Assembly: GCA_016793245.1 (NCBI GenBank) | Contig: JAEUHW010000057.1 | Location: 112,709 to 176,708, forward strand | DNA length: 64,000 nt | DNA from: Planctomycetota bacterium | GTDB lineage: Bacteria > Planctomycetota > UBA1135 > JADKAF01 | Direction of reading: 5' to 3' | Shown here: one piece after another, positions 1 to 58,869 of the stretch | How positions within the stretch are numbered: the stretch's first letter is position 1 | Layout: every line of letters begins with the position of its first letter | The notes under the pieces: generated by a model | The model's input: the letters and a program-made list of their open reading frames with translations, nothing else | Told to the model about the DNA's origin: nothing | The model's database searches: none | Translations under genes and position numbers: made by a program

Positions 1-981
1 CAGGATCTGCTCGCCCAGTCTCCCGAGCGCGAGATCGCGCGCGCCGTCGAGCGAGAGCTTCTTGTCCTTCGCGGCCTCGTCGGCGAGATCATCCGCGGCC
101 TTGTACCAGAGCTGCGTCACGCGATTGCGCGCCCAGGTCGCGCGCGCTGCGAGCACCAACTGGTTGCGGCGATCGAGCTCGGCCTTCTTCGGCGAAGTCG
201 GCCACTTCGCGAGGAAGTCCTCGCAGAGCTTCAGCGCTTCGTCGAAGCGGCTGCGGCGAGAGGCCTGCGCGACGGCGGCGAGCTGCACGTCCTGCTCGCG
301 CAGCTTGATCTTCTCCGGCAGGCGCGCGAGCGCCGTGGCGATCTCGCGCGAGGCGTACTCCGCGTCGAGAGAGCGCACCTGCAGGTAGTGCTTCTGCGCG
401 TTCTCGTAGTCGAGCACGATCTCGAGCAAGCGGGCGAGGCGCAGGTTCTCGACCTTGTCGCTCTCGAGCTTCGCCGCGCCGATCTCCGCGACCTTCGCCG
501 CGTAGATCTGATCCAGGGTGTAGACCTCGTTCGCCGGCACGCGGATCTTCAGGAGATCCTTCACGCGGCCGGGGGCGATGGGCTCGCGGGCTTCATCGAA
601 GGCCTGCACGTACCAGCGCTGCGGATCGGACTTGTCGACCGTGTGCGCCACGATCTGGCGGCCGTCGCGCAGGTTCACCTGGAAGGCGTCGACGAACACG
701 GCTTCGGAGGCCAGGTTCTCGAAGCCGAAGTCGACGCGCAGGCGCTTCGCATCGAGGGGGTTCACATCGCCCCAGCTCAAGCGGAAGGTGCCGCCGTTGT
801 CGTAGCGCTTGAAGGTGAAGCCGTCCTCGTCGGGCTCGGTCACCGCGCCCAGCAGCACGCGACCATCCTTCAAGCGCAGGATGTCGGCGTCGGCTGCCGA
901 AGCGGCTCCCGCCCACATCGAGAAGACGAGGAGGGCTCGGCGGATCCAGCGAGCCGGTCGAGCGGTGTCGAGCGCATGCAT
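1..981 (-). CDS. hypothetical secreted protein, 3' end outside window
   Basis: Not in the ORF track because no stop lies in the window. Hand translation of the minus strand from ATG 981-979 stays open for 327 codons to position 1, with G/C at almost every third position. The N-terminus MHALDTARPARWIRRALLVFSMWAGAASAAD looks like a signal peptide. Same strand as the pseudopilin operon and 73 bp downstream of it. Confidence 0.6.
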   Translation of the reverse strand, partial: MHALDTARPARWIRRALLVFSMWAGAASAADADILRLKDGRVLLGAVTEPDEDGFTFKRYDNGGTFRLSWGDVNPLDAKRLRVDFGFENLASEAVFVDAFQVNLRDGRQIVAHTVDKSDPQRWYVQAFDEAREPIAPGRVKDLLKIRVPANEVYTLDQIYAAKVAEIGAAKLESDKVENLRLARLLEIVLDYENAQKHYLQVRSLDAEYASREIATALARLPEKIKLREQDVQLAAVAQASRRSRFDEALKLCEDFLAKWPTSPKKAELDRRNQLVLAARATWARNRVTQLWYKAADDLADEAAKDKKLSLDGARDLALGRLGEQIL

Positions 982-1054
982 GATCGTGGCGACTCCGAAG
1001 GCGAGGGCTTAAGGCCGAAAGCGAGCGAGAGGCAGCGAGTGCGCGAGGGCGCGC

Positions 1055-1594
1055 TCAACGCGGGGCTTCGTAACGCAGCCCGCGCTCGAGCGCGCGCTGC
1101 ACCAGGGTCGGGCGGAGCTCGAAGACGCTCTTCAGCGTACGCGAAGAGGTCCGTCCCCGGATCCTCCAGTCGACGCGGATCTCCGTCAAATACTGGAACT
1201 CGCGCCCCGGGATACGGCGCGCCACGTAAGCGTAGCGCAGGTCGTCGAGTCCGGGGACGCGCAGCTCCTCCTTGTGGGAGAGCTCTTCGGGCAGAGAGCT
1301 CTGCTGGCCCTGGGCCGCTGCGAAGCCGAGCGCTTGATCGTTGAGGGCGCGCTGCACCGCATCGAAGAGGCGCCCTTCCACGTCGTCCAGTACGCGCGGC
1401 AGCGCGTCGCCGGCCTCGGCGCGCACGCGCGCGTCGCGGAGCTGGTCCAAGCCGACCGCGAAGAGGCCGATCACGGCGGTCATCCCCATCATGAGGAGCC
1501 CCATCGCGACCAGCATCTCGACCAAGGTGAAGCCGCGGTTCGCGGCGCCTCGCGCCGCGCGCGTGCTCCGTAGCCCTGCAACGCCGAGCTTCAT
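1055..1594 (-). CDS. minor pseudopilin, GspI-like (prepilin-type N-terminal motif), 179 aa
   Basis: Starts at an internal ATG of track ORF 1055..2404: MKLGVAGLRSTRAARGAANRG|FTLVEMLVAMGLLMMG. This has the G-FTLxE signature with Glu at +5 followed by a hydrophobic helix. ATGA overlap with the upstream stop at 1591-1594. Confidence 0.85.
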   Translation of the reverse strand: MKLGVAGLRSTRAARGAANRGFTLVEMLVAMGLLMMGMTAVIGLFAVGLDQLRDARVRAEAGDALPRVLDDVEGRLFDAVQRALNDQALGFAAAQGQQSSLPEELSHKEELRVPGLDDLRYAYVARRIPGREFQYLTEIRVDWRIRGRTSSRTLKSVFELRPTLVQRALERGLRYEAPR

Positions 1595-2793
1595 CGCTGC
1601 ATGCCTCCGCGCGCCGCGGGCACCCGCACGAAGAGATCGAGCTCGCTGCCGAACCAGATCGGCGTCCCCGGAGCATGCTCCTGCGCGGAGGTGCCGCGCG
1701 CGCCGCGCGCGGCGATCGTGAGGCGCCGTCCGCGCACCGCGGAGATCGCCACCCACTCGGAGCCGATCTTCGCGTAGGTGGCGGCGGTCGGCAGCGCGCG
1801 CGTCGCTCCGCCGACCACGAGGTCGTGCGGCTTGGCACCCCGGTGATCCGCGGCGCCGCTGGTCGCGAGCAAGGAGTCGTTCAAGCGCCACGGCCGGCTG
1901 CGCTCTTCCTCGGAGACGATGGAGATGCTGAGGCGCACGGCTTCGGGATAGACGTCGTTCCGCGCGTCTTGGTCGCCGCGCGTGGAGTCCCAGCCCAGGA
2001 TCGGCGCGCGCACCGCGGTCGACGGCTTCGCGTTGTCGTCGCTCCAGAAGGAGCCCAGGGCCTCGCTCCACTCCGTGAACGACACGCCGGCGCTCTCCCA
2101 ATCCCGCGTCCACTCCGAGCGGAAGAGCCACTCGACGTGCAGGAGCGAGCCCGCGACCTTGCGGAAGATCCCCGCTTCCTCCGTCGCCGGTCCGCCGGCG
2201 AGCGACTGCAAGAGCTCCGCGCGGCGCGGCGGCGCGCCGGCGCCCAAGGGGACCACCGCGCGGTACAGCGCGACCAGCGAGCCGTTCGCCGCGAGCGGAT
2301 CGGGACCGACGACGTAGGTCACGTAGGCCACGCCGCGCGAAGGGATCGCGTCGTACCAGGAGAAGGCCTCCGGCTCTTCGCCGCCCTGCGCCTGCTGCTC
2401 CCATTCGCGCCGCGCCTTGGAGTAGGCCTCCTCCCCCGCGGTGATGAGCGCGAGCGTGCCTTCGTCGAGATGGCCGCGGTAGCGCAGATCGTCGAGGGCG
2501 CGCTGCTGCTCGCCGCTCGAGAGCGAGCGCACGAACCCCATCTCACCGCTGCGGTCGTCGGCGTAGAGCATGCGCCCTTCGCCACCGACGATCGAGGAGA
2601 GGTCGCGCTCGAGGAACGACTTCACCGCGGCCTTCTGCTCCAGCACGTCGCGCGTCTCCTCGCCCTCCTTCCAGAGGTCGAGGCTCGTGTCGAAGAGGCG
2701 CACGACGAGGAGGCCCAGGATCGAGAGCAGCGCCATCGAGACCAGGAGCTCGATCAGCGTGAAGCCGTGTTGCCTCTGCTGCGGATCGCTCAT
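1591..2793 (-). CDS. minor pseudopilin, GspJ-like, enlarged (400 aa)
   Basis: Starts at an internal ATG of ORF 1591..3081: MSDPQQRQHG|FTLIELLVSMALLSILG. ATGA start-stop overlaps at both ends (2790-2793 and 1591-1594). Confidence 0.8.
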   Translation of the reverse strand: MSDPQQRQHGFTLIELLVSMALLSILGLLVVRLFDTSLDLWKEGEETRDVLEQKAAVKSFLERDLSSIVGGEGRMLYADDRSGEMGFVRSLSSGEQQRALDDLRYRGHLDEGTLALITAGEEAYSKARREWEQQAQGGEEPEAFSWYDAIPSRGVAYVTYVVGPDPLAANGSLVALYRAVVPLGAGAPPRRAELLQSLAGGPATEEAGIFRKVAGSLLHVEWLFRSEWTRDWESAGVSFTEWSEALGSFWSDDNAKPSTAVRAPILGWDSTRGDQDARNDVYPEAVRLSISIVSEEERSRPWRLNDSLLATSGAADHRGAKPHDLVVGGATRALPTAATYAKIGSEWVAISAVRGRRLTIAARGARGTSAQEHAPGTPIWFGSELDLFVRVPAARGGMQR

Positions 2794-5700
2794 GGCCGCG
2801 ACTCCCGGAAGAGCACCCGGCTCTCGCTCTGGTACTGCACGCCGATCTCCTCGACGTAGGGCGTTCGCTTCCAGGAGTTCGGCTTGGCACCCGCGACGCG
2901 GAAGCTGCCGGGGCGGTAGCGGAAGAAGATCTTCCCTTCGAGCAACGAACCCGGACGGTTCAGCGGCGAGAAGATCTTCGCCGCGCGATCCCCCTGCGTA
3001 TCGAGCAGCAGGAGATCGCGCGCGGCCTCGGGGTCCTCGATGAGTCGATGGTCCTCGACGCGCGTCGGGATCTCGTCCCACGCCACGCGCACGCCGCCTT
3101 CACCGCGGAGATCGCCGTCGATGCGCACCAGCGCCCAGACGTCGAGGTTCGGATCGCCCCAGACCTCCTCCTTCCAGTGCAGCGCCTGGAAGAAGCTGTC
3201 GCGCGCGGAGACGGCGAAGTGCAGCGCGCTGTTGCCGGCGAGGTCGGCGATGCGGAACTGCGTCTGCCCTTGGTCGGCGACATCGCCCGCGGCGGTGGTG
3301 AGCACCGTGCGATCCCAGTAGCGGAACGGCATGCGGTAGACCACGGAGCCGTTCGTGTGGCTCGCGATCGAGGTGCCGAAGCGCCCGCGATAGGCGCCGG
3401 CGACATAGCCGTTCGTGGAGCGATTGCGCGGGGCGCGGAAGGTGCGCGGCATCGCCAAGGTGGTTGGCGCGTTTGCGTAGGGCGTGTCGTTCCGCGTCGT
3501 GTGCACGAGCTCGTCGTCGATGAGCAAGGTCCCCTGAGTCCAGAAGCCCGCGCCGCTCTCGAGCTGCACCTGGTGGTCGCGCGTGCCGAGCGACTGCGTG
3601 AGCTCGGTCACCTCGAGCGCGGAGAGGAGATAGACCGGATCGCCCGTGCCGTGCGCGCGCGGCGTGGTGCCGAGGAAGCCGCGGCCGCGCGAGCGCGCCA
3701 GCGTGATGCGGAGCCCGTCCGAGCTCTCGTCGAGCTGGCTGTAGACCAGGAGCTCGTCGCCGATGCGCAGCACGCCCGCATCCTGCGGCCAAGCGCGCGA
3801 GGACGCGAGGAAGCCGTTGTTCGGATCGACGACCGTGCCGTAGCTCATCAAGAGCTGCGCGTGGCGCACGACGAGCTGGGTCCCGCCTTCGCTGAGCGGC
3901 TCCGCGAGCACGTAGGTCGCGAGGTTGTCCAAGCTGCCGGCGACGTTGGCCGGCCCGCGCGAGCCGAGGAGATCGAACTCGATCTCGTCGATGAAGCCGT
4001 TGAAGTTGCGGAGTCCCCCGCCGGTCTCGACGATGCCGCTGCCGAGGCGCACCTGTGTCGCGCCATCGGGCAGCTCGCCGCTCGGGAACTTCAGCAACAC
4101 GAGCTCGTCGCGCGAGTCGAGGATCGCCGGGCGGTTCTTCTGCAAGTTCGCAGGATAAGCCTGCTGCAGCGGCTCCTTCAGCGCGACTTCGTAGCGGCCC
4201 GAGCCATTCTCGATCCAGCCCCAGTTGATCGTGTAGCGCGCGAGCGGGGCATTGCCCGCGTTCTCCGGGCGGATCGAGATGCGATCGCCGCGTCCGGGGC
4301 GCGTGCCGGCCAAGGGCAAGCTGGCCCACTGATTGTTCGCCGGCGCCTGTGGATTGAAGGTCGGGAAGCCGGCGAAGGCGACGGCGAACACCGGGTTCAG
4401 ATTCGCGCCCGCGGTGTGGCGATGCTGGAAGGTCCCGTAGCGACCGCGGAACTGCAGCACGTCGTGGATGCGCTGGCTCGCGACGCTCCAGCTCTGCTGC
4501 GGCGGCGCACCGATCCAACCTTGCTGCGCTTGGGGCCAAGTGCCAGGAGACGTCACTTGGGGCCCGAAGTTGCCCACGGTGAAGTAGATCGCGGCCAAGC
4601 GCCCGGGCTCGGAGCGCACGAAGTGGTTCTGGTGGATCTCGTCGTACTCGATCCACTCCGTGTTGCCGTCTTGGCCGCTGGTGTAGATCTGCACGCGGCG
4701 CGAGTCGTTCTGGCCGGGATCGAGGTAGGACGTGGTGTCGGCTTGCGTCGCCTTCACCGAGAGCGGCACGATCCAGAGCCAATTGCGCGGGTCCTGATTC
4801 GGATCCGTGCCGTCGGGCAAGCGGTTCCACTCGGTGACGAACGCGCGCGCGCGCCCGAAGAGCGAATTGGGACCGGTGCCCTGCCCCTGCATGCGCTGGA
4901 GCTGCGTGTAGTTGCGCGTGACGCCGCTCAAGCGATTGCCGGAGCGCCCCGAGTAGCGAATGACCTCGGCGCCGAGCAGCGGCGTGCTCTGCGGCGGCGG
5001 CGTGGTGCCGGTCTCGATCTCGTAGGTCACCTGGTCGCGGTTCACCTGGACTTGGATCGGCCCGGGACCGCGCTGCACGAGCAACGCCAAGCCGCCGCCG
5101 GTCTGGAACGCGGCGAGCTCATCGCCCCCCGCTCCGGTCGGGGCGAGCTCGAGCTGCTGTCCGTCGGTCGCTTCGAGCCCCGTGCCGAGCGGGAACGGCG
5201 GCGCGGGCTGCGTCGGGTTCGTCGAGCTCGTCGGTTGTACGAGGATCTGGGTCGGCCCCTTCACCACGCGCACCACGCCGAACGGCCCGAGATCGCCGTC
5301 GAGCGTGCCGCCGCCGAGCGGGATGTCGGTCGTCGGCATCGACGCGTAGCCGTAGAGCTCGACCAGCGTGCCGACCTCGTGCGCGATGCCGGTGTACTTA
5401 CCGTCTTGGATGCGCAGGCGCACGTTGCGCCCGCCGGTCCAGGCGCTCTCCATCGGCGCGTCGCTGCGCTGCCAGCGACACTGGAACGCCTTGCCGCTGA
5501 TCGAGGTGTACTCGACCAGCTCGTCACCGACGCGCAGGACGCCGCTCGTCGGGAAGCCCTCCACGCTGTCGACGGCCAGACGTTCGTCCGTCGTACCGGC
5601 CGCCGAGGTGAGCCAGGTCACGGCGCGGGCCTTGCCGAGCGGGAAGCCATCGACGAGCACGACCAGGTCGCGCGGCTTCGCTCCGCGCGCGATCGCGCGG

Positions 5701-8174
5701 AAGTGGTACCAGGTGTTCTTCTCGAACACGAAGCGCTCGCCGACGGCCACGCGCACTTCGCAGGCCTCGACGATCGGCGTCACCGGGTCGTCGCCTTGCG
5801 AGTCATAGAGCCGGAAGACGAGCTCCGAGCCTTCGAGCGAGAGCCCGAGCCGACCGCGCTTCTCACCGGTCGCCGCGGACTCGACTTGGAAGAACGCTTG
5901 ATCGCCGACATCCGTCGGGCGGAACCAACCGCCGATCGAGAAGGGCCAGAGGCGCCCGTTCCTCGTCGCGATGCCGACGCGCTGATCGCTCGTCGCCACT
6001 TGCTGCGGGCCGATGCCATCGGAGCCGGTGTTGCGGCCCTCGACCTCGGGCTCGCGCTCGAAGTGCCAGATGCGATTCGTCTGGTAGGGATCCTCGATCG
6101 GCACGGCTTGGAGCTGCGCCCACGAGCGGATCTCGCCTTCCGCGTTCGCGGCGTAGGGATCGCTCTGCTCTTGCTCGCCCGCGCGCGGGATCTCGAAGGG
6201 ATACGAGCGCCCGGGCGGCTGCTGCGTGAGGAAGGGCTCCAGGCGCGACTCCGGCGAACGCGCGAGCAGGAGCGCCCAGCGCTGCGGGATCAGCCACTCC
6301 TGCACGTTGGGTCCGGTGACCATCCAGTGCGCGCCGCGGTTCAAGCGGAAGAGCTCCTCGAGATCGCGCTGATCGCCGAACCACTTGAAGCGCTCGCCGA
6401 CGGGTGCGGCCTGGAAGATCGAGAGCGTCGCTTCACTGCGCCGCGTGACCCCGGCGACGCTGTTGCTGGCCGAGCGCGAATGCGCGCGAAAGAGATCGCC
6501 CGAGTCGAACACGAACGGGACCGTCGCGGCCTCGAGCCCGCCGTCGATCGCGCTGGAGGCGTTCAAGTAGAGCGCGATGCGCTGCTCGGCTTCGATCTCC
6601 GGCCATTCGCCCGGAGCTTCGCTGATGCGCGCGAGCGGATCGAGGAAGCGCTCGACGTAATCGCGCATCGAGAGGAACGGAGCAGTGCTCTGTCGACCCG
6701 CCGAGGACGAGCGCAGCGCGAGGATGATGTCGGCGAGCTGCTCGGCGAGACCGGCGTCGATCGCCTCCGAGGGCTGCGCGAAGCGCCGCCGCACGCCTTG
6801 GAAGCAGGCGATCAGCACGTCGCGCGACGCCGTGTTCACATTCACCGGCGCGGGCACGAGGTAGCGCCCCACGGCACCGCCGTCGCCGTCGATGGTGCCG
6901 ACATCGGAGTGGAACACGATCGGGCCGCGCCCCGTGGCGTTCGCGACCAGGCTCATCTTCAAGTCCGCGGGATCGTCGGCGGCCCCGCGGCTCACCTGCA
7001 GCGTGGCGCCCGCGACGCCCAGGCTGGAATCGAGCTGCAGCGCCGCGGGCAGAGCCCCCGCCGCGCCGCCCGCGCGCAGATCGAGCCAGCGCGTCCACGT
7101 CCCCGCGACGCCGGTGTCGCCGAAGAAGGTGGTCAGCGGCTCCAAGCGGCGGATCAAGCTCGCCGGCAGCAAGCCCTCGGGATCGCCTTCGCCGATCTGC
7201 CGCAGGTCGTCCCACGACTGGAAGCGCCGCAGGAGGAGTCCGTCCTGCGTGCGCCAGCGACAGAGGCGCTGCACGCGATCGTCGAAGATCACCGTGCCCT
7301 GCGGATGCTCGCTCGCCGCGAGGAACGCGAAGCCGCCGACGGCGACGCCGCGCTCGCATTCGAGGAACGACGAGGCCTCGCGCTTCTTGTAGCGGATGAG
7401 CTCGCCGTTCAACCACAGCAGGCCCGCCGGTGGAAAGCCCTCGGTGGAGCTCACGTTCAGCGTGGGATCCTCGGCCTTCACGTCTTCGGCGAGCGTCGTG
7501 ATCCAACCGCGCGCGCCGTCGACGCGCCGGAAGAGATTCGCGAGCGCGAGCGGAGGTGCGGTGTTCAAGTCGAGCCGCGAGCGCTCGTCGGAGACCTCGG
7601 CGGCCCAGATCACCTGAGCGGGATTGCCGCGGTCGTAGAGCCTCTCGCGCTCCAGGCGCTGCTTCTCGTCGCGCGGATCACTGGCGCGCTCGTTCGCGTT
7701 CGGCGGGGAGAAGCGCGCGGCGAGCTCGCGCAGATCGTCCCAACGCGGGGTCTGGTCGCCGCGGCGGAGATGCACCGGATCCAACGGATCGGCGAGGTCG
7801 TCGGCCTCGGAAGCCAGAGCCCCCCTCGCATCTTCCTCAGCGGACTGCACCGCCGCGTTCGCGCGCGCGCTCTCGAAGCGATACGCCGAAGCCTCGGCCT
7901 GGCTGCGCACGGCGAACAGGAACGGCAGCGCCAACGTGAGCAACGTCGCCAACAACAAGATCACCAACACGATGGCATACCCGGATTCGCTCGGCGAAGA
8001 CGGGCAGCTCATACGGTCGCTTTCGCTCGGCGAAAGCGGGCAGCTCACGCGGTCGGATTCGCTCGGCGAAGACGGGCAGCTCCTACGGTCGCTTTCGTTC
8101 GGCGCCGACGGCCCGCGCACCTCGAGGTTCTCGCCCGGAGAGCCGCACCCGTTCCGTTCTTCGATGCCGCTCAT
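2790..8174 (-). CDS. giant GspK-like minor pseudopilin with LamG-like module (1794 aa)
   Basis: Full track ORF. The ATG at 8174 overlaps the upstream stop (ATGA). The hydrophobic N-terminal helix after Gly has no Glu at +5 (ESG|YAIVLVILLLATLLTLALPF), as in GspK. Two GspK-type xNxNTA helix-hairpin motifs are present (RLDLNTAPPLALANLF and VNVNTASRDVLIACFQGV). There is a LamG-like stretch (GGWFRP...LVFRLYD...NTWYHFRAIARG...LVVLVDG). An alternative start is the in-repeat ATG at 8015. Confidence 0.8.
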   Translation of the reverse strand: MSGIEERNGCGSPGENLEVRGPSAPNESDRRSCPSSPSESDRVSCPLSPSESDRMSCPSSPSESGYAIVLVILLLATLLTLALPFLFAVRSQAEASAYRFESARANAAVQSAEEDARGALASEADDLADPLDPVHLRRGDQTPRWDDLRELAARFSPPNANERASDPRDEKQRLERERLYDRGNPAQVIWAAEVSDERSRLDLNTAPPLALANLFRRVDGARGWITTLAEDVKAEDPTLNVSSTEGFPPAGLLWLNGELIRYKKREASSFLECERGVAVGGFAFLAASEHPQGTVIFDDRVQRLCRWRTQDGLLLRRFQSWDDLRQIGEGDPEGLLPASLIRRLEPLTTFFGDTGVAGTWTRWLDLRAGGAAGALPAALQLDSSLGVAGATLQVSRGAADDPADLKMSLVANATGRGPIVFHSDVGTIDGDGGAVGRYLVPAPVNVNTASRDVLIACFQGVRRRFAQPSEAIDAGLAEQLADIILALRSSSAGRQSTAPFLSMRDYVERFLDPLARISEAPGEWPEIEAEQRIALYLNASSAIDGGLEAATVPFVFDSGDLFRAHSRSASNSVAGVTRRSEATLSIFQAAPVGERFKWFGDQRDLEELFRLNRGAHWMVTGPNVQEWLIPQRWALLLARSPESRLEPFLTQQPPGRSYPFEIPRAGEQEQSDPYAANAEGEIRSWAQLQAVPIEDPYQTNRIWHFEREPEVEGRNTGSDGIGPQQVATSDQRVGIATRNGRLWPFSIGGWFRPTDVGDQAFFQVESAATGEKRGRLGLSLEGSELVFRLYDSQGDDPVTPIVEACEVRVAVGERFVFEKNTWYHFRAIARGAKPRDLVVLVDGFPLGKARAVTWLTSAAGTTDERLAVDSVEGFPTSGVLRVGDELVEYTSISGKAFQCRWQRSDAPMESAWTGGRNVRLRIQDGKYTGIAHEVGTLVELYGYASMPTTDIPLGGGTLDGDLGPFGVVRVVKGPTQILVQPTSSTNPTQPAPPFPLGTGLEATDGQQLELAPTGAGGDELAAFQTGGGLALLVQRGPGPIQVQVNRDQVTYEIETGTTPPPQSTPLLGAEVIRYSGRSGNRLSGVTRNYTQLQRMQGQGTGPNSLFGRARAFVTEWNRLPDGTDPNQDPRNWLWIVPLSVKATQADTTSYLDPGQNDSRRVQIYTSGQDGNTEWIEYDEIHQNHFVRSEPGRLAAIYFTVGNFGPQVTSPGTWPQAQQGWIGAPPQQSWSVASQRIHDVLQFRGRYGTFQHRHTAGANLNPVFAVAFAGFPTFNPQAPANNQWASLPLAGTRPGRGDRISIRPENAGNAPLARYTINWGWIENGSGRYEVALKEPLQQAYPANLQKNRPAILDSRDELVLLKFPSGELPDGATQVRLGSGIVETGGGLRNFNGFIDEIEFDLLGSRGPANVAGSLDNLATYVLAEPLSEGGTQLVVRHAQLLMSYGTVVDPNNGFLASSRAWPQDAGVLRIGDELLVYSQLDESSDGLRITLARSRGRGFLGTTPRAHGTGDPVYLLSALEVTELTQSLGTRDHQVQLESGAGFWTQGTLLIDDELVHTTRNDTPYANAPTTLAMPRTFRAPRNRSTNGYVAGAYRGRFGTSIASHTNGSVVYRMPFRYWDRTVLTTAAGDVADQGQTQFRIADLAGNSALHFAVSARDSFFQALHWKEEVWGDPNLDVWALVRIDGDLRGEGGVRVAWDEIPTRVEDHRLIEDPEAARDLLLLDTQGDRAAKIFSPLNRPGSLLEGKIFFRYRPGSFRVAGAKPNSWKRTPYVEEIGVQYQSESRVLFRESRP
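7983..8096 (-). repeat. 36-bp in-frame tandem repeat, about 3.2 copies, in the 5' end of the giant GspK-like gene
   Basis: Units at 7983-8018, 8019-8054 and 8055-8090, plus a degenerate continuation. Units 1 and 3 match at 35/36 positions and unit 2 matches unit 1 at 30/36. The repeat encodes ESDR[RVM]SCP[SL]SPS three times. Confidence 0.9.
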
Positions 8175-9331
8175 TCGACGACCTCTTGCACCGCGCCGAG
8201 GAGCCCGATCACGAAGGTTCTCTTGCGACCGCGTCCTTCGCCTTCGTCCTCGAAGAGTGCTACGCGAACCGGACGCCGATGGAGCAGGGGATCCAGAGAT
8301 CCGTCGGAGGCGAAGTGGATCGAGATCTCGGTGGCGGAGGTCGCATCGCCGCGCAGCTCCGAGAAAGCGAGGCCCTCGGGTAACTCGACGGGCCCGATGC
8401 TCGCGATGCGCCGGAGCGTGAGATCATCGAGGTCCCAGGCTTGGCTCATCCCCTCGCCGATCAAGAGATCGCTGCCGTCGTTCACGGCGAGGCGCGCGGG
8501 CGCGGAGAGGATCTCGCGCGCCACCACGCGACCGTCGACGAGCAGGCGCGCGACGCGCCCGTCGAAGTCGAGCTCGAGCCGGGTCCAGCGCCCGGGAACG
8601 ACGACGCCGGGGCCGCTCTTCAAGCTGAGATCGCCCGCGGCTCGTGAGGCGCTGCGCCCCTGCTCGTCCTCTTCGGAGCGCGAGGCGAGGAACACGCGGC
8701 CGGTCAGGCCGCCGCGCCGCGTGAGCGCGAGCTCGAAGGTCCGCGGTCGCAGAGCGAGGCGACCGCTGGCCCCTTCGGCGAGCCGGGCGCTCAACGCCAC
8801 ACCGAAGCCGTCGTCGGTCTGGAACGCGCGGCGCCCCGCGAGCGGCATCACGAGGCGTCCGCCGCTCTCGAGCGCCGCATAGCCTCCGGGGGCTCCGCCG
8901 CTCGGCTCCGCGCGCACTCCGCTCGCCTGCACCTCGATCCCCGCTCCCGAGTCGAAGCCCCAGAACGGCCCCGCGTTCGTCGGCGGCGAGCCCTGCGGAT
9001 CCGCGGTCCAGCCCTTCTCGAGCGGGCTCTCGAAATGCCACTGCCCGATGTCGAGGAAGTGGTAGCCCATCGCGCGACCGCGCACGGCGTCGAGCTCGAG
9101 GCGGGCAGGGAGCTGCGTGGTCACCGCCTGCTCCCGCGCCGCGCGCAGCAGCGTGCGCATCATCCCCATCGCACCGCGCGCGCCGACCGAGAGGCTCGAG
9201 AAGAGCCCCGTGCCCATGCCGAAGAGCATCGCCAGGACGGCCATCACGACCATCAGCTCGAGGAGCGTGAAGCCGCCCGCTCCGCGCACTGGCAGGGTCC
9301 TTCGCTCGGCAGCTCGCGCGCTCGTCAGCAT
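8171..9331 (-). CDS. GspH-like pseudopilin fused to a LamG/ConA-like domain (386 aa)
   Basis: Starts at internal ATG 9331 of ORF 8171..9442: MLTSARAAERRTLPVRGAGG|FTLLELMVVMAVLAML. The C-terminal half has a LamG-type pattern (PGRWTRLELDFDGRVARLLVDGRVV...LLIGEG...WDLDDLTL). ATGA overlap with the next gene at 8171-8174. Confidence 0.8.
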   Translation of the reverse strand: MLTSARAAERRTLPVRGAGGFTLLELMVVMAVLAMLFGMGTGLFSSLSVGARGAMGMMRTLLRAAREQAVTTQLPARLELDAVRGRAMGYHFLDIGQWHFESPLEKGWTADPQGSPPTNAGPFWGFDSGAGIEVQASGVRAEPSGGAPGGYAALESGGRLVMPLAGRRAFQTDDGFGVALSARLAEGASGRLALRPRTFELALTRRGGLTGRVFLASRSEEDEQGRSASRAAGDLSLKSGPGVVVPGRWTRLELDFDGRVARLLVDGRVVAREILSAPARLAVNDGSDLLIGEGMSQAWDLDDLTLRRIASIGPVELPEGLAFSELRGDATSATEISIHFASDGSLDPLLHRRPVRVALFEDEGEGRGRKRTFVIGLLGAVQEVVE

Positions 9332-9341: not shown

Positions 9342-10001
9342 TCACTCCTTGCCGAAGATCTGGAGGTCGTCGTCGTCGCCGAAGATCTCGTTCGCGCCCG
9401 CGCTGAGGAGCTGCCAGGAGCCGCGCGAGCGCCGGTCATCATCGACCTTGGTCACCGCGCGGACATAGTGCTCTTCGAAGCCGTCGCCTTCGGCCGAGCG
9501 CAGCTTGGTCTTCTGCCCCGCGTCATCGGTCAGCGTGCAGAGATAGACCAGCGGATTGCCCCACGCGTCGCAGTACTCGCGATAGCCGTCGCCGTCGGTG
9601 TCCTGCAGGAACTTCTCGTCGATGCCGGGGCTCTTCCCGAGCGACTCGAAGAGCAGGTAGAGGATCTCGCTGCCCGCATTCACTTCGCTGCCGCCGTCGA
9701 GCTGCTTGCCGTCCAGGCCGCGGAGACGCGTCGCGTGGGCGTTCGCGAACGAGCGGAACTTCCTCCAGTCGCCGGAGGGGAAGGAGCCCAGGTCGCGCTC
9801 TAGGTTGCCGAGCGAGACGCTGAGCTCGTTCAGCGTCGCCTGGGTCTGCGTCTCCTCCGCGGCGGTGAAGGCCTTCAACACGCCGGTCGTGAGCAGCGCC
9901 GTCGTCAGGATCGCGATGATCAACATCACCGCGAGCAGCTCGATCAGCGTGAACCCGGCCGCGGCGGAGCCGCGCGTCGAGCGATGGGTCGGCATGTGCA
10001 T
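9342..10001 (-). CDS. gspG: major pseudopilin, GspG-like (219 aa)
   Basis: ATG 10001 is preceded by GAGGTG. The N-terminus is MHMPTHRSTRGSAAAG|FTLIELLAVMLIIAILT. The C-terminal DAWGNPLVY...LLSAGANEIFGDDDD follows the GspG core pattern as I recall it. Confidence 0.85.
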   Translation of the reverse strand: MHMPTHRSTRGSAAAGFTLIELLAVMLIIAILTTALLTTGVLKAFTAAEETQTQATLNELSVSLGNLERDLGSFPSGDWRKFRSFANAHATRLRGLDGKQLDGGSEVNAGSEILYLLFESLGKSPGIDEKFLQDTDGDGYREYCDAWGNPLVYLCTLTDDAGQKTKLRSAEGDGFEEHYVRAVTKVDDDRRSRGSWQLLSAGANEIFGDDDDLQIFGKE

Positions 10002-10063: not shown

Positions 10064-12889
10064 CTAGTTGTCTCGGTACTGCACGCGGATGTTGTCGATG
10101 CGCAGATCCGCCGGCCGATCGGTGTCGCCCTCGGCGAAGAAGACGAGCTTCAAGCCGCCGCTGCCCGTTTGATCCTGCAGCGGACGCATGTCGATCCACT
10201 CCTCACCGGGGTGCACGCAGGCGCCCCCGATCGTGAGCCGCACTTCGGCGGTCGGACCGCTGCGTCCGCGGTAATGGCGCGCCTCCAAACGCACGCGCAC
10301 CGCTCGATCCGCGGGCCAGTCGAACGGCTTCTCGAGGAACGCCGGATCGGCGAGCCACTCCTGCCCCTGACCGCCGGCGGTCTTGATGTACTGCGTCATG
10401 CGCTGGTCGGTCGCTTCGTCGACGACGTTCGAGACGCCGAAGAGGAAGCTCGCATTCGCGAGGTCGGGGCCCTTTCCCGCGTCGAGCGGCATGCGCCCCA
10501 CGACGAGGCCGACGCGCGCTTTGTTGCTCGCCGGCACCCAGAGGTCGGCCTCGACGGAGAGGAAGTCCACGGGCCGCTCGATCAAGGTCTGCGTCCAGAA
10601 CGACGTGCGTCCGCGCTGCTTGAAGCGCCCGGAGAAGCGCAGGCCCGAGCCCATGAGCTGTGCGCCGTACTCGTTCGGCGCCGTGGCCGCTTCCCCCGCG
10701 GCCCAGCGGGCGAGGCGCGCCGGCACCCCTTCGGCCTCCACCGCGGGCTCCCACTCGTAGAGCGCGAGCGGTTGCTCGCGATCGAGCAGGTCCTCGAACT
10801 CGCGGGCGTTCCGCGCGCGATCGAGCTGCGTCACGAGATCGCGCACATAGCGCAGCAGCGGGCTCCTCAAGTCCTCGGTCTCGAGGCGCCTCGCGATTTC
10901 CTCCAGCGTATCGATCACCGCGCCGACATCGCCGCGATCGCGCAGCCGCTCGTAGCGCACCAGCGCCTGGCCGATGCGCGCCGCATGATGCAGCGGATCG
11001 AGGCGCAGCACGGTCTGGAAGCGCTGCTCGGCGCTCTCGAGGCGCTCGCGTCCGAGCTCGGAGAGCCCGGAGAGATAGCTGCCCTGCACGAAGCGCTCCT
11101 CGCCGCTCGCGACCCGGTCGAGCAGGGAACCCGCCCGCGCCGCGTCCTTCGAGAGCCACGCCTCGGCTCCGGCGAGGAACAGCGCGTCCTGCATCTCGGG
11201 CGCGCGTCGGAGCAGCGCCGCGAGCGCCGCCGCCGCCTGCGAAAGCTCTCCGCGCCGCAGCAGGATCGCTCCGCGCAGATAGAGCAGCCACGTGTCCTCG
11301 GGGTCGATCGCGAGTCCGGCCTCCGCTTCGACGTCGGCGAGCTGATCGTCGCCCGCGAGCAAGTACATCCACGCCAAGCCGCGATGGGCGCCGACGGTGT
11401 CCGCGGTGCCGCGCTCGGCGATCTCCTGCAGGCGATCGCGCAGCGCGAGCAACAGCGGGCGCACGGTCGTGAGCGCGCCTTCGCGCGCCTTCGCCAGCGC
11501 ATCGCGTCGCTCCGGAGCGGTGCCGCGATTGCCGATCTCGTCGGCGGCGCGCTCCGCCGCGAGCGTGTAGCAGCGCGCTGCCGCGAGCTCAGCGGCGACG
11601 GCGAGATCGAGCGCTCCCATTCCGAGGGAACGCGCATCCCCGCCGAGCTGCGCGAAGAACTCCGCGTGCGCGATCAGGGCCTCGACCGCATCGGCGCGCG
11701 GCTTCACCTGCGAGCTCCGCTCGAGGAAGGCCGCCAGCGCGCGTGCGTGCAACCACGCAGCGTCCTTGTCACCCGACGCCGCAGCGAGCGCGGTGGCCCC
11801 CGCAGCCGCGAGCTTCGCAAGCTCGGCGAGCTCACCGGCTCCGTAGGCCGCGCGCACGATCATCGCCCACGTGGCCGCTTCGATCGGCTGCGCGGGACGC
11901 GTCGCGAAGGCGACGGCGGCGCGCCCGCTCGCGCAGAGCCCTTCGGCCGCTTCGCGCCAGAGCGCCTGCGCTTCGGCCGCCACGAGCGGAACGGAGCCGA
12001 GGGCCTCGACCGCGCGCTGCAGATAGCTCGCGCCGTCGTCGCGGAGGCCCGTGCGCTGCAAGAAGCGGCCGTACGCGAGGAGGGAGCGCGGATCGCGGCC
12101 GTGCGGCCCCTCGCCTTGCGCGCCGATCAGCTTCTCGCGGAAGAAGAGGAACGCTTCATCCCAGCGCAGCGACTCGTCGAGCCAGCGCGCTCGACCGACG
12201 AGTCCCTGGAGGTCGTTCGGTGCGACCTCGAGCCAGCGCTCATAAGCGCCATCGATCCACTCGGGTCGGCCTTCGGCCCAACGCTGCTCCCAGACCTCGG
12301 CGATCGCGCGCGCGAGATCGGTCACGGCCATCCCCGCGAGGCGCGGTCCCTGCCAAGGCGCGTCCTGTGCCGACGACGCCGCGGGACGACTCTCGGAGCT
12401 TCCTTCGCTGGGCGCGCCTTCTTCGGCGGAGGCGCCTTCGGCTCCCGCGGAGGTCGCAGCGGTCTCTTCTGCCGGCGCGACGATCTCGGCCGGGAACGCC
12501 GCAGGCGTACCGCGCAGCAAGCTGCCCAGCAGCTTCCATGATCCATGCGGCGCCGGCGGCGGCGGCAAGAGCTCGAGCTCGTCGGCGAAGACCTGCGGCG
12601 GGACGAGATCGGGGAGCGCCAGGCGCACGCCGATGCGCGGCCGCGCGAAGGGATCTCGCTCGCGCAGGTCCACGAAGCGCCGCATGTCGTCGGGGTTCCT
12701 CACGCGATCGAGGCGATCGACGCGATGGACCGGCGCCACCTCCAAGTCGAGGAAGAGGTTCCGCGCGGCGATCTTCCCGCGCTCGCGCTGCACGACGCGC
12801 GCGGCTTCCGCGGGACGCTCACCTCCGAGGAAGTAGAGCCCGGCGACGAGCGCGGCGACCACACCGCAAGTGACCATCTCCTTGTTCAC
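10064..12889 (-). CDS. membrane-anchored TPR-repeat protein with C-terminal jelly-roll (ConA/LamG-like) domain
   Basis: Full track ORF with a GTG start. It has an N-terminal TM helix (VTCGVVAALVAGLYFLG), a long Ala/Leu-rich helical-repeat region, and a C-terminal beta-rich module ending LKLVFFAEGDTDRPADLRIDNIRVQYRDN. It sits inside the pseudopilin operon. Confidence 0.75.
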   Translation of the reverse strand: MNKEMVTCGVVAALVAGLYFLGGERPAEAARVVQRERGKIAARNLFLDLEVAPVHRVDRLDRVRNPDDMRRFVDLRERDPFARPRIGVRLALPDLVPPQVFADELELLPPPPAPHGSWKLLGSLLRGTPAAFPAEIVAPAEETAATSAGAEGASAEEGAPSEGSSESRPAASSAQDAPWQGPRLAGMAVTDLARAIAEVWEQRWAEGRPEWIDGAYERWLEVAPNDLQGLVGRARWLDESLRWDEAFLFFREKLIGAQGEGPHGRDPRSLLAYGRFLQRTGLRDDGASYLQRAVEALGSVPLVAAEAQALWREAAEGLCASGRAAVAFATRPAQPIEAATWAMIVRAAYGAGELAELAKLAAAGATALAAASGDKDAAWLHARALAAFLERSSQVKPRADAVEALIAHAEFFAQLGGDARSLGMGALDLAVAAELAAARCYTLAAERAADEIGNRGTAPERRDALAKAREGALTTVRPLLLALRDRLQEIAERGTADTVGAHRGLAWMYLLAGDDQLADVEAEAGLAIDPEDTWLLYLRGAILLRRGELSQAAAALAALLRRAPEMQDALFLAGAEAWLSKDAARAGSLLDRVASGEERFVQGSYLSGLSELGRERLESAEQRFQTVLRLDPLHHAARIGQALVRYERLRDRGDVGAVIDTLEEIARRLETEDLRSPLLRYVRDLVTQLDRARNAREFEDLLDREQPLALYEWEPAVEAEGVPARLARWAAGEAATAPNEYGAQLMGSGLRFSGRFKQRGRTSFWTQTLIERPVDFLSVEADLWVPASNKARVGLVVGRMPLDAGKGPDLANASFLFGVSNVVDEATDQRMTQYIKTAGGQGQEWLADPAFLEKPFDWPADRAVRVRLEARHYRGRSGPTAEVRLTIGGACVHPGEEWIDMRPLQDQTGSGGLKLVFFAEGDTDRPADLRIDNIRVQYRDN

Positions 12890-12923
12890 GGATCAGACCT
12901 TCAGTGCTGTTGCGGTGGGATGA

Positions 12924-13904: not shown

Positions 13905-13923
13905 GAGGTTCGCGTGCGCGGGA

Positions 13924-15627: not shown

Positions 15628-15715
15628 GATCACCTCGAACAGGATGGCGCGAGGAACAGAACCAGCCGCCGCCCCAGCGCGGGCGCGGACGCGTGAACCA
15701 GAGCTGCGGAGGCGC

Positions 15716-18091: not shown

Positions 18092-18438
18092 GCTCACCTG
18101 TGCTGCTGGGAACCTTGGATCGAGGAGGAGCCCGTCGCGGCCCGCGGAGGCGGGAGGTTCGCGAGACGGTGCTGCCGGGGAGAGGAGGAAAGCGCGAGTC
18201 GAGAAAGGGAGGACACAGCAGAGATCGCCGAGGGCCGCGGAGCTCCGCGCTCGAGGCGCCGCAGCTCGAAGAGCTCGTCTCCGCGTGCCGCTATCGCTCG
18301 CCGCGCCGTCGGTAACCAGCGACTCGGCCAACGGATGCGGCGCATGCTAGCGTTGCGCGACGGCGGCCGTCAAAGGCCGCGCCGACGCGAGCCGCGAGGC
18401 TCGCGCTCACGCGTTCCCGATACGACCGCGACTCACGA

Positions 18439-41538: not shown

Positions 41539-41554
41539 CTCGATCGCTCCTGGC

Positions 41555-58809: not shown

Positions 58810-58869
58810 GCCCCTCCAGCGCCGATAGTCCCCTCGACCAGGTCAGCGCGCCCTCGCGCGAGACCCCGC

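What the first reader, a model, noticed from the sequence alone, without database searches (positions are those of the whole stretch)
2790..8174. 1794-aa GspK-like tip pseudopilin, about five times the normal size
As I recall it, characterised GspK is roughly 300-350 aa. This protein keeps the GspK hallmarks. It has a hydrophobic helix after Gly with no Glu at +5 (SG|YAIVLVILLLATLL). It also has two xNxNTA helix-hairpin motifs (RLDLNTAPPLALANLF near residue 205 and VNVNTASRDVLIACFQGV near residue 470). On top of this it adds more than 1300 residues, including a LamG-like segment (GGWFRP...LVFRLYD...NTWYHFRAIARG...LVVLVDG) and long Gly/Thr/Pro-rich regions that look beta-rich. GspK caps the pseudopilus tip, so this would place a lectin-like module of more than 150 kDa at the fibre tip, functionally closer to an adhesin such as PilY1 than to a secretion piston.
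Basis: partly seen in the sequence, partly recalled or inferred. Interest (0 to 1): 0.75.

Follow-up and report, generated by a model that had tools for sequence, protein, structure and literature searches.

The report
Giant lectin-bearing GspK-like tip pilin
This is a real, conserved ~1,730-residue protein of planctomycete bacteria: its front end is a very divergent version of the small cap subunit (GspK/PilK) of type IV filaments, and about 1,200 extra residues of sugar-binding-like and phage-tail-like beta domains are fused to it, so it is most likely a built-in giant adhesin at the fibre tip.

Summary
ORF 2790-8174 (-) is one genuine gene. GC3 is about 0.9 along its whole length, and full-length homologues occur in at least 161 species.

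The GspK reading is supported only by sensitive methods:
- Pfam and NCBIfam thresholds are failed.
- A profile-profile comparison with 34 canonical GspKs gives 96.6% probability (E=5e-10). The match is collinear across GspK, and both Asn motifs align.
- Pfam T2SSK hits 15 of 25 family members weakly.
- The N-terminus is a prepilin-type signal without Glu5, whereas all four flanking pseudopilins have G|FTLxE.

The C-terminal 1,114 residues model confidently (pLDDT 86, pTM 0.83) as an all-beta body. It contains a LamG/ConA-like jelly roll and repeated small barrels homologous to phage baseplate modules.

The gene sits in a 10-gene operon (FHA protein, PilM-like protein, pseudopilins and others) that was syntenic in 48 of 48 full loci. 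No ATPase, platform or secretin lies nearby.

Verdict: a new, unannotated variant of a known kind, namely a modular minor pilin or tip adhesin, about twice the largest modular pilin singled out in a 2021 survey. Tip location, ligand and filament type are inferred, not shown.

The parts
2790..8174 (-). Whole ORF as given (1794 codons plus stop). The probable real CDS is 2790-8012 (start at M55).
   Evidence: (GC3 0.90)
7986..8111 (-). 36-bp x 3.5 tandem repeat encoding (S)CPSSPSESDR copies. It is a duplicated leader-coding segment and makes the start codon ambiguous.
   Evidence: alignment of N-termini
7794..8012 (-). Prepilin-type (class III) signal and long N-terminal helix, residues 55-127. 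The leader is MSCPSSPSESG, followed by the predicted cleavage G64|Y65, a hydrophobic alpha1N, no Glu at +5, and invariant P84.
   Evidence: helix at A2 positions 10-73; 0 of 84 relatives have Glu at +5
6390..7982 (-). Divergent GspK/PilK-type minor-pilin module (residues 65-595). It is collinear with the whole of GspK but carries two large insertions.
   Evidence: hhalign with controls; Pfam T2SSK in 15 of 25 members; NCBIfam GspK sub-threshold; XcpX is the best PDB sequence hit, E=0.11
7530..7589 (-). First GspK motif block, DERSRLDLNTAPPLALANLF (residues 196-215). It aligns to GspK D99/N105/N107.
7275..7502 (-). Insertion 1: small beta-barrel module, copy 1 (residues ~225-300, motif G.L.L.GELIRY...ERG). 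It is homologous to phage baseplate-wedge and virion structural modules.
   Evidence: PHROGs phrog_2885 E=1.2e-11 and phrog_708 E=3.1e-11; AF2 confident block plus Foldseek to tailspike N-terminal barrels
6870..7127 (-). Insertion 2: second beta-rich insert in the GspK scaffold (residues ~350-435).
   Evidence: gap in the hhalign alignment; strands in the AF2 model, low confidence
6789..6854 (-). Second GspK motif block, PAPVNVNTASRDVLIACFQGVR (residues 441-462), followed by a helical domain. P443-V444-N445, N447, T448 and A449 are invariant in the family.
5565..6017 (-). LamG / concanavalin-A-like jelly-roll domain (residues ~720-870).
   Evidence: AF2 pLDDT ~85-95; Foldseek PDB matches to TeNT/BoNT Hc, laminin LG, agrin LG and CBM40; Laminin_G_3 in 2 of 25 members, E=1e-5; 4qvs_A E=0.0013
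5325..5588 (-). Barrel module, copy 2 (residues ~863-950, EGFPTSGVLRVGDELVEY).
   Evidence: hmmsearch with the copy-1 profile, i-E=3.3e-6
4830..5027 (-). Barrel module, copy 3 (residues ~1050-1115).
   Evidence: i-E=8.4e-5
3600..3797 (-). Barrel module, copy 4 (residues ~1460-1525, GVLRIGDELLVY...RGRGFLGTTPRAHGTGDPV).
   Evidence: phrog_7578 E=1.3e-4 and phrog_1101 E=2.4e-4
3300..3587 (-). Barrel module, copy 5 (residues ~1530-1625).
   Evidence: i-E=0.024 here, 2.5e-4 in P0003
2829..3227 (-). C-terminal beta-sandwich with very long strands (residues ~1650-1782).
   Evidence: AF2 DSSP, strands at model positions 971-1102
2793..2828 (-). Conserved extreme C-terminal tail (residues 1783-1794; family consensus xxR[VI][LF]xExVTAR). 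All homologues end at the same column. It is not confidently placed in the C-only model. It is a candidate in-cis terminal beta-strand.
   Evidence: 97-98% occupancy to the last residues; pLDDT below 50 for the last 6 residues; the idea comes from PMC13533445
1591..2793 (-). Downstream 400-aa pseudopilin (G|FTLIE), tentatively GspJ-like. Its start overlaps the giant gene's stop (ATGA). Its C-terminus carries the same barrel module.
   Evidence: phrog_1101 E=4.7e-5; 43 of 48 loci
1055..1594 (-). Downstream 179-aa pseudopilin (G|FTLVE), tentatively GspI/PilV-like.
   Evidence: Verru_Chthon cassette protein B 8e-7, XpsI 3.6e-4
8171..9331 (-). Upstream ~385-aa pseudopilin (G|FTLLE), tentatively GspH-like, with a weak LamG-like segment.
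9342..10001 (-). Upstream 219-aa GspG-like pseudopilin (G|FTLIE), the candidate major subunit.
   Evidence: TIGR01710 E=7e-7; 47 of 48 loci
10064..18331 (-). Upstream operon genes: TPR protein (10064-12889), 326-aa membrane protein (12924-13904), PilM/GspL-like protein (13924-15765) and FHA-domain protein (15716-18331).
1..1008 (-). N-terminal part of a conserved ~533-aa protein of unknown family. It is the last gene of the conserved cluster and is cut by the window edge.
   Evidence: (48 of 48 loci)

Best explanation
The gene encodes a giant modular minor pilin of the GspK/PilK (tip or 'cap') class, belonging to a Planctomycetota-specific type IV filament system.

**Proposed mechanism.**
1. 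The protein is made with a prepilin-type signal and is cut after Gly64. It is anchored by its hydrophobic alpha1 helix, which lacks Glu5 as expected for the top-most subunit.
2. It then nucleates a tip complex with the GspJ-like (400 aa) and GspI-like (179 aa) pseudopilins. These are translationally coupled to it.
3. The GspH-like and GspG-like subunits polymerise below this complex.
4. The GspK scaffold carries two inserted beta domains and a ~1,200-residue all-beta body (132 kDa). That body contains a LamG/ConA-like lectin domain and four more copies of a small barrel shared with phage baseplate and tail proteins.
5. The body is thereby displayed at the distal end as a built-in adhesin, most plausibly glycan-binding. 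It does in cis what PilY1/PilC/MshQ do in trans.

**Shown here:** the reality of the gene, family conservation, remote GspK homology, the signal type, the domain folds and operon synteny.

**Inferred:** cleavage, incorporation into a filament, tip position, surface exposure, the ligand, and whether the filament is pilus-like or pseudopilus-like.
For: - **Coding and conservation:**
- **GspK homology:** hhalign Prob 96.6%, E=5.3e-10, collinear over nearly all of GspK. Helix-free blocks score E=4e-5 to 1.7e-6, against reversed controls of 0.03-0.4. Pfam T2SSK hits 15 of 25 members, best 8.8e-5. The only NCBIfam hit is GspK. The best PDB sequence hit is XcpX, at the NVNTAS motif.
- **Signal:** G|hydrophobic with no Glu5 in 84 of 84 scorable relatives. 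All four neighbouring pseudopilins have G|FTLxE.
- **Context:** the gene sits between pseudopilin genes with ATGA overlaps. The cluster is syntenic in 48 of 48 full loci.
- **C-terminal body:** AF2 pLDDT 86.2, pTM 0.83. Foldseek finds LamG/ConA-like matches. Viral structures with ConA-like and FCCH-type barrels match. PHROGs baseplate-wedge hits reach 1e-11.
- **Precedents:** modular pilins with lectin modules (PMC8179133, PMC9934059). Large tip proteins joined to PilK-type pilins in trans or in cis, namely PilY1, MshQ and CpaL (PMC13533445).
Against: - The window protein fails every curated GspK/T2SSK threshold.
- The N-terminal AF2 model is poor (pLDDT 57.6), and Foldseek did not recover GspK structures. 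The GspK fold is therefore not confirmed structurally.
- No assembly ATPase, platform protein, prepilin peptidase or secretin lies within about 10 kb in the window or in two related contigs.
- Gene order (G-H-K-J-I) differs from the canonical G-H-I-J-K.
- The GspI/J/H assignments of the neighbours rest mostly on their N-terminal helices.
- A 189-kDa cap is large relative to known secretin channels.
- There is no expression, localisation or binding data.
Confidence: 0.68

Rival explanations
1. The protein is the same kind of GspK-type cap, but of a short periplasmic T2SS-style pseudopilus. The giant lectin-like head would then not be surface-exposed. It would engage cargo (for example glycosylated exoproteins or polysaccharide) in the enlarged planctomycetal periplasm and push it out, or handle imported polymers.
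For: - Sequence links are to T2SS GspK rather than to T4P PilX/PilK models.
- The candidate major subunit is GspG-like.
- A PilM-like protein of ~570-610 aa followed by a small membrane protein next to the pseudopilin genes resembles GspL/GspM placement in gsp operons.
- A 189-kDa cap may be too bulky for a secretin.
Against: - No GspC/D/E/F/O genes lie in or near the cluster.
- The LamG domain plus phage receptor-binding-type barrels are typical of outward-facing binding proteins.
- Modular lectin pilins studied so far are adhesins (PMC9934059).
- Known T2SS caps are small.
Confidence: 0.17
2. The protein is not a filament subunit at all. The N-terminal hydrophobic helix would act as an uncleaved signal anchor, and the protein would be a membrane-tethered periplasmic or cell-surface lectin/scaffold that only descends from a GspK-like ancestor.
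For: - Curated GspK thresholds are failed.
- The N-terminal fold is not confirmed.
- Machinery genes are absent nearby.
- The extreme size and two insertions in the pilin module might be incompatible with assembly.
Against: - Gly at -1 is nearly invariant. Glu5 is absent in the giant family, while the four neighbouring pseudopilins of this window all keep G|FTLxE.
- The gene is translationally coupled to pseudopilin genes and strictly syntenic with them.
- The GspK core blocks are conserved.
- Large insertions in functional pilins are known, namely ComZ, CofB and CpaL (PMC8179133, PMC13533445).
Confidence: 0.12
3. The long ORF is an artefact: a chance ORF in GC-rich DNA, or several genes fused by a frameshift or assembly error.
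For: Long spurious ORFs do occur here. The antisense 1944-aa ORF 3048..8882 is one.
Against: - GC3 is 0.84-0.95 in every block.
- Full-length collinear homologues of the same length occur in at least 161 species, including a complete genome of a cultured strain.
- The AF2 model of the C-terminal 1114 residues is confident.
Confidence: 0.01

Closest known systems
GspK / XcpX / EpsK (T2SS minor pseudopilin; Pfam PF21687 + PF03934; structures 3CI0, 5VTM)
   Same: - Prepilin-type signal without Glu5.
- Collinear profile-profile match over almost the whole of GspK, including both invariant Asn motifs.
- Encoded among pseudopilin genes.
   Different: - 1,730 mature residues against 286-393.
- Two beta inserts inside the scaffold and a 1,200-residue C-terminal body.
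- Fails curated thresholds.
- No gspCDEF nearby.
- Gene order is G-H-K-J-I.
Modular type IV pilins, e.g. Streptococcus sanguinis PilC (ConA-like lectin module) and PilB (vWA) (PMC8179133, PMC9934059)
   Same: A pilin module carries grafted binding modules. A ConA/LamG-type lectin is the commonest graft. These pilins are predicted to be tip-located.
   Different: - Those are bimodular pilins of a few hundred residues. The extreme case highlighted in the 2021 survey was 860 aa.
- Here the carrier is a GspK-type cap, with at least 8 extra domains.
- The family has no database signature, so such surveys miss it.
PilY1/PilC and MshQ (large non-pilin tip adhesins that donate a C-terminal beta-strand to PilK-type pilins) and CpaL/TadG (minor-pilin-like N-domain, large middle region and a C-terminal strand in cis) (PMC13533445, PMC7541494)
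   Same: - A large (600-1,500 aa) binding protein physically joined to the PilK-type cap.
- CpaL shows that the cis arrangement exists.
- The giant family has a strictly fixed, conserved C-terminal tail.
   Different: - No PilY1 beta-propeller and no vWA domain were detected.
- Return of the C-terminal strand to the pilin sheet is untested here.
- The protein is about three times the size of CpaL.
Verru_Chthon cassette (TIGR02596/02598/02599/02600) of Verrucomicrobiota. My recollection is that this is a four-gene cassette with one very large protein A plus three prepilin-type proteins B, C and D.
   Same: The three neighbouring pseudopilins give their best or near-best NCBIfam hits to cassette proteins B (8e-7), C (2e-5) and D (4e-3). 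Both belong to the same PVC superphylum.
   Different: The giant protein itself does not hit protein A at E<=0.1. All the neighbour hits are far below the cut-offs. The nature of protein A is recalled from memory and was not tested.
Phage baseplate-wedge, tailspike and tail-fibre structural proteins (phrog_2885, phrog_708, phrog_1101; N-terminal barrels of AP22 gp54 and phi297 gp61)
   Same: The repeated ~60-90-residue barrel (G.L.IG.E.I.Y ... RG..GT..H..G) is a sequence-level homologue (E down to 1e-11). ConA-like domains also co-occur in those proteins.
   Different: Only domain types are shared (TM-scores 0.06-0.12). The host protein here is a pilin, not a virion component, and there is no phage context in the window.

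Membership tests
GspK / T2SSK minor pseudopilin | Scores above the curated thresholds of Pfam PF03934/PF21687 or NCBIfam NF037980 | tested here: not met
   No Pfam hit at E<=0.01, nor at E<=10 on segments. NF037980 gives 21-24 bits against a cut-off of 130, covering the N-terminal 72 profile positions only.
GspK / T2SSK minor pseudopilin | Homology to the family detectable across the whole domain, including the conserved D..NLN and INxNTA blocks | tested here: met
   hhalign gives 96.6%, E=5.3e-10, collinear over GspK 4-300 of 330. Helix-free blocks score E=4e-5, 1.7e-6 and 7e-6, and reversed controls 0.03-0.4. Pfam T2SSK hits 15 of 25 members, best 8.8e-5.
GspK / T2SSK minor pseudopilin | Class III (prepilin) signal with Gly at -1, a hydrophobic alpha1N and no Glu at +5 | tested here: met
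   The sequence is SG|YAIVL. G65(-1) is conserved in at least 90% of members. 0 of 84 relatives have Glu5, whereas the four neighbours all have G|FTLxE. Cleavage itself was not tested.
GspK / T2SSK minor pseudopilin | Pilin fold with an inserted alpha-domain (as in 3CI0 and 5VTM) | tested here: inconclusive
   The N-terminal AF2 model has pLDDT 57.6 and pTM 0.58. Helices follow the NVNTAS motif and a beta-hairpin follows them, but Foldseek returned no GspK chain among 50 listed hits.
GspK / T2SSK minor pseudopilin | Encoded in a gsp/T2SS operon with GspD, GspE and GspF, next to GspI and GspJ | tested here: not met
   Pseudopilin neighbours are present, but there is no secretin, ATPase or platform gene within about 10 kb in the window, L001 or L002.
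Modular type IV pilins (sensu Raynaud et al. 2021, PMC8179133) | N-terminal pilin module with a class III signal, plus at least one extra module not specific to type IV filament biology | tested here: met
   Pilin/GspK module. LamG/ConA-like domain. Phage-type barrels.
PilY1 / PilC tip adhesins | C-terminal PilY1/PilC beta-propeller domain (IPR008707) | tested here: not met
   There is no Pfam or NCBIfam hit. The Foldseek PDB hits of the confident C-terminal model are all jelly rolls, with no propeller.
PilY1/MshQ/CpaL-type beta-strand addition to a PilK-type pilin | The extreme C-terminal ~6-10 residues complete the beta-sheet of the PilK-type module | not testable with these tools
Laminin G / concanavalin A-like lectin superfamily | Jelly-roll beta-sandwich fold of LamG type | tested here: met
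   Foldseek PDB gives 45 hits at E<=1e-3. These include TeNT/BoNT Hc, laminin LG4-5, agrin LG (prob 0.99) and CBM40 (prob 0.98). PF13385 is found in 2 of 25 members at 1e-5. The PDB profile hit 4qvs_A scores E=0.0013. Carbohydrate binding was not tested.
Verru_Chthon cassette protein A (TIGR02600) | Match to the NCBIfam/TIGRFAM model | tested here: not met
   The model was not reported at E<=0.1 for the whole protein or its halves. I assume the model is in the library because models B, C and D are.

The most novel reading that the evidence does not exclude
The family could be a cis-fused equivalent of a PilK-type cap plus a PilY1/MshQ-type adhesin. In this reading the strictly conserved extreme C-terminal strand folds back to complete the pilin sheet and so licenses assembly. 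This would produce a closed-loop ~190-kDa lectin 'grapple' on a retractile, Planctomycetota-specific filament that is regulated through the FHA protein. Such a fibre could be the long-sought device by which planctomycetes catch polysaccharides or other cells, for example for whole-polymer uptake, or for the cell-cell contacts and fusion described in the Saltatorellus clade. Its binding modules would have been exchanged with phage baseplate proteins.
Probability: 0.15. Interest if true: 0.8.

Novelty: new variant of a known kind. Interest (0 to 1): 0.58.

Why it matters
- **Position and size.** GspK/PilK-type subunits sit at the very tip of type IV filaments and control their initiation. This family shows that the cap itself can be expanded five-fold into a multi-domain binding machine. 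It is about twice the size of the largest modular pilin singled out in the 2021 survey (860 aa).
- **Invisible to annotation.** The family is conserved with a fixed 10-gene operon in at least 161 planctomycete species, yet every source name seen for it reads 'hypothetical protein', and none of the 25 aligned members has a Pfam hit above threshold apart from a Laminin_G_3 domain in P0003.
- **A testable case.** It offers a natural test of the cis-versus-trans beta-strand-addition model of tip licensing.
- **A candidate function.** It gives a concrete candidate for surface or glycan capture in a phylum whose fibres and uptake mechanisms are poorly understood.
- **A cultured host.** Engelhardtia mirabilis Pla133, which has a complete genome, carries the family and could be used for experiments.
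- **A phage link.** The sequence-level sharing of barrel modules with phage baseplate proteins hints at module exchange between phage receptor-binding proteins and bacterial pili.

Tried and rejected
- **Direct Pfam, NCBIfam and PDB sequence searches of the window protein.** They gave nothing significant except a sub-threshold GspK hit and the XcpX NVNTAS motif. Alone they were not decisive.
- **Word-indexed homologue search, run twice.** It found only 24 clusters and suggested a rare family. The exhaustive HMMER search overturned this, with 1904 hits at E<=1e-3 and 332 at <=1e-30.
- **Foldseek on the low-confidence N-terminal model.** It found only the inserted barrel (tailspike N-domains, F1-ATPase and UBA1 barrels) and not GspK. 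I treat this as inconclusive, not as evidence against.
- **Chance ORF or gene fusion.** Rejected.
- **The plus-strand 1944-aa ORF as the real gene.** Rejected.
- **A PilY1-like propeller.** Rejected.
- **ATPase, secretin or platform genes.** I looked in the rest of the window and in L001 and L002 and found none.
- **The conserved 533-aa protein.** Searches against PDB and NCBIfam gave no informative hit.
- **Literature searches for this cluster in Planctomycetota or for the Verru_Chthon cassette.** They found no description.
- **An alignment of 113 sequences for AF2.** It was too large and was reduced to 46.
Full report

The window has about 70% G+C, so long ORFs occur on both strands. The region carries a 1794-codon ORF on the minus strand (2790..8174) and a 1944-codon ORF on the plus strand (3048..8882).

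The minus-strand ORF has the coding signature of this genome. GC at codon position 3 is 0.90 overall and 0.84-0.95 in every 100-codon block. The plus-strand ORF has GC3 0.70 and an Arg/Ala-rich nonsense-like translation.

The word-indexed protein search found 24 clusters, all 1717-1757 aa. One is 93% identical (a Planctomycetes MAG with a 7-Mb contig). The rest are 25-30% identical over 64-98% of the query's length.

The exhaustive HMMER search with the N-terminal profile found many more: 1904 representatives at E<=1e-3 and 332 at E<=1e-30. Of the 149 best, 102 are 1500-2100 aa with a median of 1723.5; shorter ones are contig fragments.

The ORF is therefore one gene, with no frameshift or fusion, and its length is a conserved family trait. 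Canonical GspKs collected here are 286-393 aa, so 'five times the normal size' is accurate.

One correction concerns the start codon. A 36-bp x 3.5 tandem repeat (7986-8111) duplicates the leader-coding segment. The 93% homologue starts 42 codons downstream, and the median family leader is 15 aa. The start is therefore more likely M55 (8012) or V43 than M1. However, M1 overlaps the upstream stop as ATGA, so it cannot be excluded. From Tyr65 the mature protein is 1730 aa and 189 kDa.

**2. What is the N-terminal part?**

- Pfam gives no hit.
- NCBIfam's only hit is GspK, at 21-24 bits against a cut-off of 130, on the first 72 profile positions.
- The best PDB sequence match of the family profile is P. 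aeruginosa XcpX (GspK), but only over PVNVNTAS..VLaa (E=0.11-0.47).

I therefore built a reference alignment of 34 diverse bona fide GspKs, starting from E. coli K-12 GspK; all carry PF21687 and most also PF03934. I compared it with the N-terminal family alignment (residues 55-700).

- hhalign gives 96.6% probability, E=5.3e-10.
- With a permissive alignment threshold the match is collinear over GspK columns 4-300 of 330. The leader and hydrophobic helix align. The block D196..LDLNTA aligns with GspK's invariant D99/N105/N107. A 'SWDDLRQIGE' segment aligns with GspK's S-ELR-v-G-t. PVNVNTAS..A..LA..I..LR aligns with GspK's L-INxNTA block (N217/N219) and the following helices.
- Blocks that exclude the hydrophobic helix still hit the correct GspK positions, with E=4e-5, 1.7e-6 and 7e-6. 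The same queries against the reversed GspK alignment give E=0.03-0.4.
- Independently, Pfam T2SSK matches 15 of the 25 family members at weak E-values, best 8.8e-5.

The N-terminus reads leader-Gly|Tyr-Ala-Ile-Val-Leu. Gly at -1 is conserved in at least 90% of members, and none of 84 scorable relatives has Glu at +5. All four flanking pseudopilins have the canonical G|FTL(I/L/V)E. Lack of Glu5 is the known hallmark of GspK-type caps; this last point is my own knowledge.

I conclude that residues ~65-595 descend from a GspK/PilK-type minor pilin. Two insertions are absent from GspK, at ~225-300 and ~350-435.

The fold itself is not confirmed. The AF2 model of this part was poor (pLDDT 57.6), and Foldseek recovered only the inserted barrel.

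**3. What is the rest?**

An AF2 model of residues 681-1794, built on 46 diverse homologues, is confident (mean pLDDT 86.2, pTM 0.83) and almost entirely beta.

- Foldseek against the PDB gives 45 matches at E<=1e-3. All are LamG/ConA-type jelly rolls: tetanus and botulinum toxin Hc, laminin LG4-5, agrin LG, Gas6 LG, and sialidase CBM40.
- Sequence support is weak but consistent. PF13385 is found in 2 of 25 members at 1e-5. An S-layer LamG-like chain, 4qvs_A, scores E=0.0013.
- No PilY1-type propeller appears.

A second, repeated element is a 60-90-residue barrel with the motif G.L.IG.E.I.Y....L....RG..GT..H..G.
- A profile of copy 1, which is insertion 1 of the GspK module, finds further copies at ~863, ~1052, ~1465 and ~1533.
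- PHROGs matches copy 1 to phage baseplate-wedge and virion structural families at E=1e-11 to 1e-8. Copy 4 matches phage tail families.
- Foldseek links the barrel to tailspike N-terminal domains and E1-FCCH-like barrels.
- Low TM-scores (0.06-0.12) show shared domain types, not shared architecture.

The protein ends in a beta-sandwich with unusually long strands and a 12-residue tail. The tail is conserved (consensus xxR[VI][LF]xExVTAR), terminates at the same column in about 98% of 113 homologues, and is the one part of the C-terminal model that is not confidently placed.

**4. Context**

The gene is the seventh of a minus-strand operon. In order, the genes are:
1. an FHA-domain protein;
2. 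a PilM-like protein of ~570-610 aa (weakly Amuc_1101-family);
3. a 326-aa membrane protein;
4. a ~940-aa TPR protein;
5. a GspG-like pseudopilin (219 aa);
6. a ~385-aa pseudopilin with a weak LamG-like segment;
7. the giant protein;
8. a 400-aa pseudopilin ending in the same phage-type barrel;
9. a 179-aa GspI/PilV-like pseudopilin;
10. a 533-aa protein of unknown family.

The giant gene's stop, and its first ATG if M1 is used, overlap the neighbouring genes as ATGA.

A scan of one genome per GTDB species found 161 species with a relative. Nearly all are Planctomycetota MAGs, plus the cultured Engelhardtia mirabilis Pla133.

In the 48 loci with full flanks, conservation in the same order was as follows:
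- FHA protein, PilM-like protein, the giant protein and the 533-aa protein: 48 of 48.
- GspG-like pseudopilin: 47.
- 400-aa pseudopilin: 43.
- 179-aa pseudopilin: 38.

No ATPase, platform protein, peptidase or secretin lies in the window or within 10 kb in two related contigs. They must be encoded elsewhere if the system is functional.

**5. Most likely mechanism**

Shown: a conserved gene; a prepilin-type, Glu5-less, GspK-derived N-terminal module; a confident all-beta body with a LamG-type lectin fold and phage-type barrels; and tight operon linkage to four canonical pseudopilins.

Inferred: the protein is processed like a prepilin and forms the top of an initiation complex with the two downstream pseudopilins. 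It is then followed by the upstream ones, so the ~132-kDa body is presented at the filament end as an adhesin, probably for glycans.

This is the logic of modular pilins (S. sanguinis PilB/PilC; PMC8179133, PMC9934059) and of PilY1/PilC/MshQ. The recent beta-strand-addition model is especially relevant (PMC13533445). In that model PilK-type caps obtain their last strand in trans from PilY1/PilC/MshQ, or in cis in GspK and in the ~600-residue CpaL. The fixed, conserved C-terminal tail makes an in-cis version plausible here, but I could not test it.

Rival explanations:
- A periplasmic T2SS-type pseudopilus cap. This would be the same molecule with a different location and role.
- A membrane-anchored protein that is not part of a filament.
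- An artefact, which is excluded.

**6. Comparison and novelty**

The protein works like a GspK/PilK cap fused to a tip adhesin. As a family member it fails the curated GspK thresholds, the size criterion and the operon criterion, but it passes remote-homology, motif and signal tests.

It meets the definition of a modular pilin. It is not a PilY1. The neighbours weakly resemble Verru_Chthon cassette proteins B, C and D, but the giant protein does not match protein A.

Wherever a source gives the family a name, that name is 'hypothetical protein', and I found no description of it in the literature searched. I rate it a new variant of a known kind. It is notable for its size, which is about twice the largest modular pilin highlighted in 2021. 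It is also notable for placing the expansion on the cap subunit itself, for its strict operon, and for sharing modules with phage baseplates.

Interest is moderate to high for type IV filament and planctomycete specialists. It is tempered by the absence of any functional data and by the concept being already established.

Noticed in passing
window 7986-8111 (-): A 36-bp x 3.5 tandem repeat (82% matches) duplicates the leader-peptide-coding segment of the giant gene, giving (R)SCPSSPSESD(R) copies. The 93% homologue has fewer copies. This may be a variable-number repeat at the 5' end or upstream region.
   Followed up: partly
window 3048-8882 (+): A 1944-aa ATG-to-stop ORF lies antisense to the giant gene. 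With GC3 0.70 and an Arg/Ala-rich translation, it is a shadow ORF and not a gene.
   Followed up: yes
window 1591-2793 (-) and 8171-9331 (-): The flanking pseudopilins are themselves modular. The 400-aa one ends in the same phage-tail-type barrel (phrog_1101 E=4.7e-5). The ~385-aa one has a weak Laminin_G_3 segment (E=0.013). The whole tip set therefore seems decorated.
   Followed up: partly
window 1-1008 (-); L001 17053-18654: A ~533-aa protein follows the pseudopilins in 48 of 48 full loci. It matches no Pfam, NCBIfam or PDB family, apart from a weak Leptospira LA_0442 N-terminal domain hit (2.4e-5). It is an unknown obligatory partner of the system.
   Followed up: partly
window 15716-18331 (-) and 22282-23709 (-): The operon is headed by a large FHA-domain protein (also YscD-cytoplasmic-domain-like), and a Ser/Thr protein kinase gene lies about 4 kb upstream. 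This hints at phospho-dependent control of the filament system.
   Followed up: no
window 40444-41577 (-): An actin/MreB-like gene scores only modestly against the MreB_Mbl model (2.7e-17). It could correspond to the MamK-like 'saltatorellin' described for Saltatorellus-clade planctomycetes (bioRxiv 10.1101/817700), the clade of the one cultured carrier of the giant family.
   Followed up: no
protein P0145: A 5123-aa representative protein contains 12 stretches matching the barrel region (profile positions 132-206). The barrel is therefore a mobile repeat module that also builds other giant proteins.
   Followed up: no
window 36678-39329 (+): An 883-aa protein carries four CarboxypepD_reg-like domains (E=3.6e-42). 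It lies next to sugar-modifying genes, namely a DegT aminotransferase-GNAT fusion at 34748-36694 and a sugar transferase at 58810-60342. This looks like a cell-surface glycan region.
   Followed up: no
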